Shown here piece by piece: positions 27,831 through 27,975 of a stretch of DNA of 64,000 nucleotides (position 1 is the stretch's first letter; each line of letters starts with the position of its first letter). The stretch comes from a virus. The stretch lies in IMG/VR virus record IMGVR_UViG_3300031656_000001; one strand, 5' to 3'. A program made the translations under genes and the position numbers. Below the pieces are notes generated by a model. That model had not been told where the DNA came from. It searched no databases and saw only the letters and a list, made by a program, of their open reading frames with translations.

Positions 27831-27975
27831 ACAGGTTCCTATTGTTTCTGACTGCCGTGTCTACCAATTCCACCACTCCCTAATTTTGTATTAATTTTGT
27901 TAGGGAGGTAGGACTTGAACCTACACATCTTGCGATAGCAGTTTCCTTATAGAGTTTGTTTGCTGTAAGGAACCT
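27831..27975 (-). ncRNA. Y-RNA-like ncRNA D with a circularly permuted tRNA-Leu module
   Basis: AGGTTCCT/AGGAACCT stem + CAGCAA enclosing V arm, T arm, loop-closed acceptor and D arm. Confidence 0.85.

What the first reader, a model, noticed from the sequence alone, without database searches (positions are those of the whole stretch)
27831..27975. Circularly permuted tRNA-Leu mimic grafted onto the CAGCAA stem, apparently built from this phage's own tRNA-Leu
Seen, in 5'-3' order: terminal stem + CAGCAA; 3' anticodon strand ACTGC; variable arm ATC-GCAA-GAT; T arm GTAGG-TTCAAGT-CCTAC; acceptor CTCCCTAA/TTAGGGAG closed by a 16-nt loop; D arm TGGTGGAATTGGTAGACACG; 5' anticodon strand GCAGT; terminal stem. 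The D arm is identical to both flanking tRNA-Leu genes and the variable arm nearly matches tRNA-Leu(TAG). The anticodon loop is replaced by the protein-binding stem. Known: YrlA has the same T-acceptor-D permuted order. Inference: an independent, recent origin of a YrlA-like RNA from tandem tRNA-Leu halves, retaining a class II variable arm. Cleavage of the acceptor loop could make it a two-piece chargeable mimic.
Basis: partly seen in the sequence, partly recalled or inferred. Interest (0 to 1): 0.9.

Follow-up and report, generated by a model that had tools for sequence, protein, structure and literature searches.

The report
Phage tRNA-Leu-shaped Y-like RNA
This 145-base phage RNA gene is a leucine tRNA with its parts re-ordered and its anticodon loop replaced by a conserved "handle"; it belongs to a large phage RNA family, absent from Rfam and the papers searched, that travels with a Ro60-shaped protein, much like bacterial YrlA RNAs.

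Summary
On the minus strand, 27975-27831 reads: terminal helix, CAGCAA, 3' anticodon-stem strand, class II variable arm, T arm, an acceptor stem closed by a 16-nt loop, D arm, 5' anticodon-stem strand, terminal helix.

It is not a recent product of this phage's own tRNA-Leu genes. Two capped IMG/VR scans gave 108 distinct elements of the same design, 35-37 of them Leu-type. The nearest are 76-82% identical to it over the full length.

A covariance model re-aligned 51 distinct Leu-type sequences. All six helices covary: 93.7% of cells are paired, against 61% in shuffles and about 40% when partners are slid. The tRNA tertiary-contact bases are invariant.

The handle also follows a DUF2828/DUF7788 gene (20350-21789). 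That protein's AlphaFold model matches only Ro60 structures at the top. The gene occurs in 34 of 43 contigs that carry such RNAs.

Best reading: a YrlA-type tRNA-mimic Y RNA for a divergent Ro60-like protein. It uses a different handle motif and fails Rfam's YrlA threshold. Cleavage and charging at the acceptor loop remain untested. This scan has noted the same family in at least 70 other genomes.

The parts
27831..27975 (-). Whole RNA gene 'D': handle plus circularly permuted tRNA-Leu-like domain (145 nt)
   Evidence: Sequence. Hand-built structure verified pair by pair. Covariance model R1 scores it 136.7 bits, E about 1e-24.
27968..27974 (-). Handle helix, 5' strand GGTTCCT
   Evidence: Pairs with 27834-27840. 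All 7 pairs of this helix change on both sides among 51 distinct homologs (helix 1).
27960..27965 (-). Invariant CAGCAA motif, the presumed contact for the Ro60-like protein
   Evidence: Invariant in 32 aligned Leu-type elements, although the pattern used to find them required CAGCAA. Shared with sister RNAs A, B and C of this window and with the RNAs just downstream of DUF2828 genes in related phages, which were fetched by protein similarity.
27943..27959 (-). 5' linker; it contains TAAGGAAAC, which is complementary to the handle 5' strand (possible alternative hairpin)
   Evidence: Sequence. Conserved in L253, L277 and L114b, and compensated in L208.
27938..27942 (-). Anticodon-stem 3' strand ACTGC
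   Evidence: Pairs with GCAGT at 27851-27855. All 5 pairs covary (helix 2).
27927..27936 (-). Class II variable arm ATC-GCAA-GAT
   Evidence: Matches the window's tRNA-Leu(TAG) at 12 of 13 bases. All 3 pairs covary (helix 3).
27908..27924 (-). T arm GTAGG-TTCAAGT-CCTAC
   Evidence: U54, U55, C56 and A58 are invariant. 99.6% of cells are paired, and 3 pairs covary (helix 4).
27900..27907 (-). Acceptor 3' strand CTCCCTA plus A73
   Evidence: A 7-bp stem plus an A:T eighth pair with 27876-27883. All 8 pairs covary (helix 5).
27884..27899 (-). 16-nt AT-rich loop closing the acceptor stem (candidate RNase P / 3'-end processing site)
   Evidence: Sequence. In Leu-type relatives, long loops go with A73. 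Processing was not tested.
27876..27883 (-). Acceptor 5' strand TTAGGGAG
27856..27875 (-). Positions 8-26: U8, G9 and D arm TGGTGGAATTGGTAGACACG
   Evidence: Identical to both tRNA-Leu genes of the window. U8, A14, A15, G18 and G19 are invariant in 32 relatives.
27851..27855 (-). Anticodon-stem 5' strand GCAGT
27841..27850 (-). A-rich 3' linker CAGAAACAAT
   Evidence: Sequence. Relatives have A-rich linkers of similar length.
27831..27840 (-). Handle helix 3' strand AGGAACC plus conserved tail TG(T)
   Evidence: tRNA-Leu(TAA) starts 7 nt downstream at 27824, so RNase P cleavage there would free the 3' end (inference).
27984..27999 (-). 16-mer TTGACGTATTGGTAAT, 8 nt upstream of D (possible phage promoter)
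   Evidence: Its only other copy in the window lies just upstream of tRNA-Gln at 29440-29455. It is not a sigma-70 consensus.
20350..21789 (-). DUF2828/DUF7788 gene, the Ro60-like presumed protein partner
   Evidence: Pfam. AlphaFold2 model with pLDDT 94.5. The top 12 Foldseek matches are all Ro60/TROVE structures.
20001..20052 (-). Sister RNA B (minimal handle RNA) just downstream of the DUF2828 gene
19759..19996 (-). Sister RNA A (handle with about 215 nt of cargo)
   Evidence: Homologs sit in the same position in related phages.
27492..27546 (-). Sister RNA C (minimal handle RNA) inside the tRNA array

Best explanation
D is a conserved non-coding RNA of the Y-RNA type.

Its two ends pair into a 7-bp helix that is followed by an unpaired CAGCAA. 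This handle is shared with three other RNAs of this phage. It is most likely the binding site for the phage's Ro60-like ring protein (DUF2828/DUF7788, 20350-21789).

The rest of the RNA is a tRNA-Leu body in circularly permuted order. The anticodon loop is replaced by the handle, and the acceptor ends are joined by a 16-nt loop. It should fold into the tRNA L-shape.

The RNA would therefore tether a tRNA look-alike to the Ro60-like protein, as YrlA does for bacterial Ro60. That could bring tRNA-recognising enzymes to the protein, or gate its access to substrates, during infection. The likely setting is RNA repair or counter-defence.

Shown: the structure, its conservation and covariation, the Ro60 fold of the protein, and the co-occurrence of RNA and protein.

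Inferred: physical binding, transcription as the first RNA of a tRNA operon, release of the 3' end by RNase P at the next tRNA, possible cleavage in the acceptor loop, and the biological role.
For: Anatomy: verified base by base.

Family size: a parser found 108 distinct elements with handle + CAGCAA + T arm + closed 7-bp acceptor + D arm in loci from two capped IMG/VR scans. It found none in 1.3 Mb of control phage DNA apart from D.

Leu-type relatives: R1 found 60 matches, 51 of them distinct.

Covariation on that alignment:
- 93.7% of cells are paired, against 60.8% in shuffles and 39-44% when partners are slid.
- 28 of 31 pairs change on both sides.
- The covariation score is 0.787 against 0.21.
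- All six helices are supported.

Tertiary bases: U8, A14, A15, U48, G18, G19, U54, U55, C56 and A58 are invariant in 32 sequences.

Protein:
- The AlphaFold2 model has pLDDT 94.5.
- Its 12 best PDB matches are all Ro60/TROVE, including Thermus phage phiLo Ro60, Xenopus Ro and D. radiodurans Rsr. E-values run from 1.5e-9 to 3e-5 over 516-588 aligned columns.

Linkage of RNA and protein:
- Handle RNAs lie directly downstream of the DUF2828 gene in related phages, with covarying stems.
- DUF7788 is present in 34 of 43 contigs that carry permuted elements, and in 17 of 18 that are at least 90% complete.
- It is present in only 710 of 50,697 phage records overall. Fisher p is about 1e-54.

Similarity to YrlA: relatives align end to end with Rfam YrlA at 29-34 bits.

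Context: an Rnl1 RNA ligase, an AAA_33 kinase and a Tad3-like gene lie nearby.

Literature: YrlA architecture and RNase P/CCA processing in M. smegmatis (PMC4201824). A Ro60-like gp130 of phage Bas63 counters the ppl defence, and its authors suspect that Y RNAs lie among the neighbouring tRNA genes (bioRxiv 10.1101/2024.10.10.617714).
Against: - No expression, end-mapping or binding data exist for this RNA or this protein.
- D lies 6 kb from the DUF2828 gene, not beside it.
- The covariation counts come from a model-fitted alignment, which leans towards the model's structure. The collection scans were chosen with CAGCAA in the pattern, so the invariance of the motif among those hits is partly circular.
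- Pfam's TROVE model does not match the protein even at E up to 10, so the Ro60 relationship rests on a predicted fold.
- D gives no match to Rfam YrlA at E up to 10.
- The minimum-free-energy fold replaces the T and D hairpins with an alternative pairing.
- I did not verify that Bas63 gp130 is a DUF2828 homolog. I only found Felixounavirus homologs at about 39% identity.
Confidence: 0.72

Rival explanations
1. D is a two-piece, chargeable tRNA-Leu mimic. RNase P and 3' processing cut the 16-nt acceptor loop, CCA is added, and LeuRS leucylates the RNA. The handle and acceptor helices hold the halves together. This could coexist with the Ro60-like partnership.
For: - D has a 7-bp acceptor stem, the A73 discriminator, a canonical tRNA-Leu D arm and an A15:U48 pair.
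- Long-loop Leu-type elements keep A73 in 12 of 15 cases, against 3 of 20 for short-loop ones.
- 20 of 108 family members encode N73-CCA at the start of the loop, against 1.4% expected.
- M. smegmatis YrlA is cut by RNase P and receives CCA in vivo (PMC4201824).
Against: - D encodes CAA, not CCA, after A73.
- A73 is not conserved across the Leu-type family (15 of 35).
- Many relatives close the acceptor with 4-6-nt loops, including GAAA, that cannot give free ends.
- The A73/long-loop correlation is confounded by shared ancestry.
- No experiment bears on it.
Confidence: 0.12
2. D is a decoy or sponge that acts on its own. A tRNA-shaped RNA soaks up or blocks a host tRNA-directed factor, such as a defence nuclease, a modification enzyme or a synthetase. 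The Ro60-like protein is not required, and the handle serves only to stabilise the RNA ends.
For: - D lies inside a tRNA array, next to RNA-repair and anti-defence genes.
- Other family members keep complete anticodon-arm look-alikes of many specificities.
- Among close homologs the triplet varies while the loop frame is kept.
Against: - D has no anticodon loop, which is the usual target of anticodon nucleases.
- An invariant unpaired CAGCAA and the strong linkage to the DUF2828 gene are not explained by end stabilisation alone.
Confidence: 0.1
3. D is debris from tandem tRNA-Leu genes: a pseudogene left by recombination or duplication, with no function of its own.
For: A tandem pair of identical tRNA genes automatically yields T arm, acceptor 3', spacer, acceptor 5', D arm. 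Genuine examples of this occur (L207). The D arm of D equals that of both neighbouring tRNA-Leu genes.
Against: - Full-length homologs 76-82% identical to D exist in other phages.
- All helices show compensatory change, including the handle and the split anticodon stem.
- The breakpoints fall exactly at the anticodon loop on both sides.
- The handle is identical in kind to three other RNAs of the phage.
Confidence: 0.02
4. D is a true permuted tRNA gene of the Cyanidioschyzon kind. The handle is cut out, the ends are ligated into a circle (for example by the phage Rnl1 ligase), and processing of the acceptor loop then yields a normal decoding tRNA-Leu.
For: - The 3' half precedes the 5' half.
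- The phage encodes an Rnl1-type ligase.
- Some relatives carry complete anticodon arms and an encoded CCA.
Against: - D has no sequence that could form a 7-nt Leu anticodon loop after joining. The linkers are CAGAAACAAT and ...CTCTATAAGGAA.
- Linker lengths vary widely among relatives.
- No bulge-helix-bulge motif is present.
- The conserved CAGCAA and the Ro60-like partner point to a stable RNP rather than an excised spacer.
Confidence: 0.03

Closest known systems
YrlA, the tRNA-mimic Y RNA of bacterial and phage Ro60 (Rsr) (Chen et al. 2014, PMC4201824; Rfam RF02553)
   Same: - A terminal helix carries the protein-binding motif on its 5' side, followed by V, T arm, closed acceptor-like stem and D arm in that order.
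- tRNA tertiary bases are conserved.
- The gene is on the same strand as a Ro60-type gene, among or near RNA-repair genes.
- Relatives of D align over the whole RF02553 model.
- M. smegmatis YrlA has a 7-bp acceptor, is cut by RNase P and receives CCA.
   Different: - The handle motif is an unpaired CAGCAA after the helix, not GNCGAAN0-1G/CGAA.
- The partner is DUF2828/DUF7788, which Pfam's TROVE model does not match.
- D gives no RF02553 match. Relatives score 29-34 bits against the gathering score of 69.
- The cargo is a recognisable class II tRNA-Leu with a long variable arm and a split 5-bp anticodon stem.
- Family members copy many different tRNA types, some with complete anticodon arms or an encoded CCA.
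Phage Ro60 with Y-like RNAs Yrl1/Yrl2 of Thermus phage phiLo (PMC12135203; PDB 9KOP, 9L5Y)
   Same: A phage-encoded Ro60 ring with phage-encoded partner RNAs next to the gene. Its structures are the best and third-best fold matches of the window's protein.
   Different: The phiLo RNAs are stem-bulge-stem Y RNAs with a CGAA motif. In the passages I read they are not described as permuted tRNAs. Sequence identity of the proteins is about 16%.
Bas63 gp130, a Ro60-like counter of the ppl defence (bioRxiv 10.1101/2024.10.10.617714)
   Same: A Ro60-shaped phage protein encoded directly upstream of a tRNA array. The authors suggest that some of those 'tRNA genes' are Y RNAs. Felixounavirus homologs of the window's protein exist at about 39% identity.
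   Different: No RNA partner was defined there. I did not verify that gp130 itself is the DUF2828 homolog. The window's phage is a huge Lak-like phage, and no defence system is known for its host.
Circularly permuted tRNA genes of Cyanidioschyzon merolae (Soma et al. 2007; from my own knowledge)
   Same: The 3' half of the tRNA is encoded upstream of the 5' half, and the acceptor ends are joined by a short spacer.
   Different: Those genes mature through a bulge-helix-bulge cut and a circular intermediate into decoding tRNAs. D lacks an anticodon loop and a BHB motif, and carries a conserved protein-type handle instead.
Dictyostelium Class I RNAs (Rfam RF01414; PMC7919456)
   Same: A short terminal helix starts with G and is followed by the 11-nt motif CCUUACAGCAA. 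The RNA ends in C-UG. D contains CCTTACAGCAA exactly. RNAs B, C and D give sub-threshold RF01414 matches of 28.1, 26.2 and 20.4 bits.
   Different: - All scores are below the gathering score of 41.5. None of 14 related loci reached it.
- Class I RNAs are 42-65 nt long, eukaryotic, driven by the DUSE promoter, and reported as unique to dictyostelids.
- No tRNA-like cargo has been described for them.
- A shared protein partner is unknown.

Membership tests
YrlA (Rfam RF02553) | Terminal helix enclosing V, T arm, closed acceptor-like stem and D arm, in that 5'-3' order | tested here: met
   Structure verified. All helices covary in 51 distinct relatives. A relative aligns to model positions 1-114.
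YrlA (Rfam RF02553) | Conserved tRNA tertiary-interaction nucleotides (U8-A14, 15-48, G18/G19 with the T loop, U54-A58) | tested here: met
   U8, A14, A15, U48, G18, G19, U54, U55, C56 and A58 are invariant in 32 Leu-type elements.
YrlA (Rfam RF02553) | GNCGAAN0-1G (CGAA) Ro60-binding motif near the 5' end | tested here: not met
   D has no CGAA. The invariant motif is CAGCAA, placed 2-3 nt after the helix.
YrlA (Rfam RF02553) | Score at or above Rfam's gathering threshold (69 bits) | tested here: not met
   D has no RF02553 match at E up to 10. Relatives score 28.7-34 bits.
YrlA (Rfam RF02553) | Encoded close to, and on the same strand as, a Ro60/TROVE gene | tested here: inconclusive
   D is on the same strand, 6 kb from a protein that is Ro60-like by fold but not by Pfam TROVE. 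In other phages, elements lie within about 1-2 kb upstream of the gene (L114, L144).
YrlA (Rfam RF02553) | Physically bound by the Ro60 ortholog | not testable with these tools
   Needs immunoprecipitation or a gel shift.
Canonical tRNA-Leu (Rfam RF00005) | Contiguous cloverleaf with a 7-nt anticodon loop and free acceptor ends | tested here: not met
   Not called by ARAGORN or by Rfam's tRNA model. The order is permuted, there is no anticodon loop, and the acceptor is closed by a loop.
Permuted tRNA genes (C. merolae type) | 3' half upstream of the 5' half, with the acceptor ends joined by a spacer | tested here: met
Permuted tRNA genes (C. merolae type) | Termini form a bulge-helix-bulge motif, and joining them restores a complete anticodon loop | tested here: not met
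   The linkers CAGAAACAAT and ACAAACTCTATAAGGAA give no Leu anticodon loop. The terminal helix is a plain 7-bp stem followed by CAGCAA.
Dictyostelium Class I RNA (Rfam RF01414) | Short terminal helix with a 5' G, followed by the 11-nt motif CCUUACAGCAA | tested here: met
   D reads GGTTCCTTACAGCAA. The model alignment of RNA B is shown.
Dictyostelium Class I RNA (Rfam RF01414) | Gathering score of 41.5 bits; length 42-65 nt; dictyostelid genome with the DUSE promoter | tested here: not met
   D scores 20.4 bits and is 145 nt long in a phage genome. None of 14 related loci reached the threshold.
CAGCAA-handle RNAs of DUF2828 phages (not in Rfam 15; defined operationally here) | A 6-9-bp terminal helix, a 1-5-nt spacer (mostly 1-3), an unpaired CAGCAA, variable cargo, and a 3' strand often followed by a TG or GT tail | tested here: met
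   D shares its first 15 nt almost exactly with RNA B of the same phage.
CAGCAA-handle RNAs of DUF2828 phages (not in Rfam 15; defined operationally here) | Genome also encodes a DUF2828/DUF7788 Ro60-like protein | tested here: met
   Gene at 20350-21789. Present in 34 of 43 element-bearing contigs against 1.4% of phage records.

The most novel reading that the evidence does not exclude
The CAGCAA-handle RNAs may be a cross-kingdom RNP family. A divergent Ro60 clade (DUF2828/DUF7788) present in hundreds of phage genera would use a handle that is the same as the stem-plus-CCUUACAGCAA signature of Dictyostelium Class I RNAs. That would give those orphan developmental RNAs a candidate protein partner.

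In phages the handle would display interchangeable, fully tRNA-like cargos. For long-loop members such as D, the cargo would be cut at the acceptor loop, CCA-tailed and aminoacylated. The ring protein would then carry a charged two-piece tRNA mimic.
Probability: 0.12. Interest if true: 0.88.

Novelty: new variant of a known kind. Interest (0 to 1): 0.62.

Why it matters
Ro60/Y-RNA particles are conserved from bacteria to humans, yet what the tRNA-like module of bacterial YrlA does is still unknown.

This finding shows that a second, much larger phage branch of the system exists. Homologs of the protein occur in 710 of 50,697 phage records. These include Felix O1-like, Listeria, Staphylococcus, Campylobacter and mycobacterial phages.

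This branch uses a different handle and far more faithful tRNA copies. It includes a class II tRNA-Leu version with every tertiary-contact base preserved.

It gives concrete, named RNA candidates for a protein family whose Bas63 relative is reported to defeat a bacterial defence. It also explains many odd 'tRNA-like' stretches in phage tRNA arrays that gene finders skip or miscall.

Finally, it offers a natural series of cargo swaps for asking which tRNA-binding factor the module recruits.

Tried and rejected
1. blastn of the 681-nt region against 50,697 phage records found only ordinary tRNA-Leu matches, and no homolog of D. blastn of D against the 80 DUF2828 loci matched only the handle. Homologs appeared only with pattern and covariance searches.

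2. No whole genome is held for the window.

3. Folding the DUF2828 protein from a single sequence gave an unusable model, pLDDT 39. Sequence search of the PDB found nothing. Both were replaced by a 130-sequence alignment.

4. Own-tRNA origin. I tested whether elements resemble their own phage's tRNA-Leu more than foreign ones. In general they do not. D and L244 are the only cases where the own gene ranks first, and for D the margin is one point.

5. Dictyostelium Class I membership: sub-threshold only.

6. Sigma-70 promoter and intrinsic terminator scans around D found nothing.

7. A scan of 185,579 prokaryote genomes with the Leu-type pattern gave 86 stretches, close to my rough estimate of about 66 chance matches. 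Only one or two are credible elements. The family is therefore essentially phage-borne.

8. A clean negative-control set of contigs for the DUF7788 co-occurrence could not be built. Many loci that the parser scored as negative hold variant elements. I used the phage-collection background instead.

9. I tried to locate Bas63 by a guessed accession in order to verify gp130. The record was a different phage, and I dropped this.

10. Complex prediction was not used, because it does not model RNA partners.
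Full report
**Setting.**
The window is AT-rich (about 31% GC), and every ORF of 250 aa or more, with all 17 tRNA genes, lies on the minus strand. A capsid-region protein is 51% identical to one from a 462-kb uncultured phage and 37% identical to Lak megaphage proteins, so this is a huge phage. 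No whole genome is held. ARAGORN finds 17 tRNA genes, 15 of them in an array at 25.9-29.4 kb. The finding lies in that array, between a promoter-like 16-mer and tRNA-Leu(TAA).

- A 7-bp terminal helix GGTTCCT/AGGAACC.
- CAGCAA three bases after the 5' strand of that helix.
- ACTGC, which pairs with a distal GCAGT.
- The hairpin ATC-GCAA-GAT.
- A canonical T arm.
- An 8-bp acceptor helix closed by 16 nt.
- A tRNA-Leu D arm.

The D arm is identical to both tRNA-Leu genes of the window. The variable arm differs from that of tRNA-Leu(TAG) at one base. The T stem and acceptor stem differ from both genes yet are perfectly paired.

Neither ARAGORN nor Rfam's tRNA model calls it. A purpose-built scan for 'T arm, closed 7-bp acceptor, D arm' over the window plus 1.3 Mb of related phage DNA finds this site only, plus two AT-rich spurious hits.

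**It is one of four handle RNAs, and the handle tracks a gene.**
The same 'GG-helix, 2-3 nt, CAGCAA ... helix-CC, TG' frame encloses RNAs A (19759-19996), B (20001-20052) and C (27492-27546). A and B lie directly downstream of ORF 20350-21789, which Pfam labels DUF2828 + DUF7788.

I fetched 80 loci around homologs of that protein from IMG/VR. In about half of them (39 of the 80, by a strict regex) an A-like and/or a B-like RNA follows the gene. The helix sequences differ but always pair, for example GGTTTC/GAAACC, GGAAGG/CCTTCC, GGATAG/CTATCC and GGATCG/CGATCC.

**The protein is Ro60-shaped.**
Sequence searches do not show this. There is no PDB hit, and no Pfam TROVE hit even at E of 10. With a 130-sequence alignment, AlphaFold2 gives pLDDT 94.5.

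The 12 best Foldseek matches are all Ro60/TROVE structures. They are phage phiLo Ro60, Xenopus and human Ro60, and Deinococcus Rsr, aligned over 516-588 columns with E-values from 1.5e-9 to 3e-5. Generic vWA domains come only after them. Some mycobacteriophage homologs are already annotated 'Ro-like RNA binding protein'.

**D is not a one-off.**
blastn found no homolog. So did a Leu-specific pattern that adds GGTARAC. A parser requiring handle, CAGCAA, T arm, closed acceptor and D arm found 108 distinct elements of 92-186 nt in those loci. It found none in the 80 control loci.

Thirty-five to 37 of the elements are Leu-type. The closest to D share its handle, 5' linker, variable arm and T arm:
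- L253: 82% identical.
- L277: 81%.
- L290: 79%.
- L208, L219 and L259: 76%.

L259 lies in the same 256-kb contig as L015, a phage whose DUF2828 protein is 69% identical to the window's.

**Structure is under selection.**
I built a covariance model from 32 Leu-type sequences using D's structure. I then re-aligned 60 matches, 51 of them distinct, and counted pairs:
- 93.7% of cells form standard pairs, against 60.8% in shuffles and 39-44% when partners are slid.
- 28 of 31 pairs change on both sides.
- The covariation score is 0.787 against 0.21.

Each of the six helices (handle, split anticodon stem, variable arm, T stem, acceptor, D stem) is supported. The caveat is that the alignment was fitted to the model. 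The bases that build the tRNA elbow and core (U8, A14, A15, U48, G18, G19, U54, U55, C56, A58) are invariant in the MAFFT alignment. This rejects the pseudogene reading.

**Origin.**
The claim that D was recently built from this phage's own tRNA-Leu genes is not supported.
- D is far closer to other phages' elements than to its neighbours. Against the neighbouring tRNA genes it shares only 21-25 and 27 bases in local matches.
- The exact D-arm 20-mer recurs in tRNA-Leu genes and elements of unrelated phages. Ten per cent of foreign tRNA-Leu genes are identical to it.
- Elements are not generally closer to their own phage's tRNA-Leu.

The family as a whole clearly derives from tRNAs, possibly many times. 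Members carry D arms, variable regions and sometimes whole anticodon-arm look-alikes of different tRNA types. The break falls at 26/27, at 43/44, or in the anticodon loop as in D.

**Linkage to the protein.**
DUF7788 is found in 34 of 43 contigs that carry permuted elements, and in 17 of 18 that are at least 90% complete. It is found in none of 14 control genomes. The family is present in 1.4% of phage records, which gives a Fisher p of about 1e-54.

In small contigs the elements lie 1-2 kb upstream of the gene on the same strand (L114, L144). The Leu-type pattern is essentially absent from 185,579 prokaryote genomes.

**Relation to known families.**
Rfam 15 has no family that captures D. It holds YrlA (RF02553). 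Class I-type relatives of D align to the whole YrlA model, helix to helix, but at 29-34 bits against a threshold of 69. YrlA's GNCGAA motif is replaced by CAGCAA.

The published YrlA work describes the same V-T-acceptor-D order. It also reports RNase P cleavage plus CCA addition for the 7-bp-acceptor YrlA of M. smegmatis (PMC4201824). Phage Ro60 with partner RNAs has been solved for phiLo (PMC12135203). A Ro60-like Bas63 protein counters the ppl defence, and its authors suspect Y RNAs among its tRNA genes (bioRxiv 10.1101/2024.10.10.617714). No paper in the library mentions DUF2828 or DUF7788 together with RNA.

I therefore file D as a new variant of the YrlA kind, not as a member of RF02553.

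**Mechanism.**
Most likely (0.72), the handle binds the Ro60-like ring and the cargo presents a tRNA-Leu-shaped domain.

The transcript probably starts just after the 16-mer shared with the tRNA-Gln leader. It probably ends where RNase P cuts tRNA-Leu(TAA) 7 nt downstream. Both points are inferred.

Whether the acceptor loop is opened is unknown. The evidence in favour:
- The 7-bp stem and A73.
- The long AT-rich loop.
- The association of A73 with long loops (12 of 15 against 3 of 20).
- The 15-fold excess of encoded CCA in the family.

The evidence against generality is the many relatives with tetraloop-closed stems.

The nearby Rnl1 ligase, AAA_33 kinase and Tad3-like gene fit a role in RNA repair or counter-defence. 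That role is inference.

**Earlier scan notes.**
This scan has reported the same handle-plus-DUF2828 pairing in at least 70 other genomes. I used those notes only as leads, and checked the YrlA and Bas63 papers myself.

Noticed in passing
window 27943-27951 (minus) with 27966-27974: The 5' linker TAAGGAAAC is a second complement of the handle 5' strand GGTTCCTTA, so CAGCAA could alternatively sit in a small local hairpin. The pairing is kept in L253, L277 and L114b. It is compensated in L208 (GGTTTCTTA with TAAGAAACC).
   Followed up: partly
window 20001-20052, 27492-27546 and 27832-27974 (minus): All three give sub-threshold matches to Rfam Dicty_Class_I_RNA: 28.1, 26.2 and 20.4 bits against a gathering score of 41.5. 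D contains the Class I 11-mer CCTTACAGCAA exactly, and the 3' C-UG tail is also shared. Whether dictyostelids have a DUF2828 partner was not tested.
   Followed up: partly
L126:1885-2005, L144:2345-2462, L196:6243-6360: These homologous permuted elements keep an anticodon-arm-like hairpin with the CT-NNN-AA frame, but the triplet differs (GCA, ACG, GTA). The loop's shape, not a particular anticodon, seems to be conserved.
   Followed up: no
L044:20315-20399 (+): An 85-nt handle RNA whose cargo is only a T arm plus an 8-bp acceptor-like helix closed by GAAA. It has no D arm and so resembles a minihelix.
   Followed up: no
window 27984-27999 and 29440-29455 (minus): The 16-mer TTGACRTATTGGTAAT occurs exactly twice. 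Each copy lies 5-9 nt upstream of the first RNA of an array (D; tRNA-Gln). It is not a sigma-70 consensus. The phage encodes its own sigma-like protein at 29855-30466.
   Followed up: partly
window 26328-26402 (minus): ARAGORN reports a 'tRNA-???' with a 4-base anticodon (gcaa). Rfam's tRNA model scores it 47.7 bits.
   Followed up: no
window 28399-28962 and 26403-27332 (minus): Two stretches of about 560 and 930 nt inside the tRNA array have no ORF of 120 aa or more. The first contains two T-arm-like motifs (GGTTCGAGTCC, GGTTCGAATCC) and a very weak HDV-like hit (18.6 bits).
   Followed up: no
window 27640-27735 (minus): This element lies between tRNA-Leu(TAA) and tRNA-Arg. It has a 9-10-bp terminal helix (AAGAGAAGC/GCTTCTCTT) and a CAGTAA near its 3' side. 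It does not fit the handle frame.
   Followed up: no
window 34591-35187, 33378-34406, 30750-31151 (minus): A Tad3-like (Thoeris inhibitor family) ORF, a T4 Rnl1-type RNA ligase and a small AAA_33 P-loop kinase lie a few kb from the tRNA array.
   Followed up: partly
L196:10528-10643 (-), L153:6443-6566 (+), L193:5156-5278 (-): Some permuted elements carry the anticodon-arm look-alike after the D arm. One has the triplet TCA in a CTTCATG loop. Another combines a class II body with a GAT triplet.
   Followed up: no
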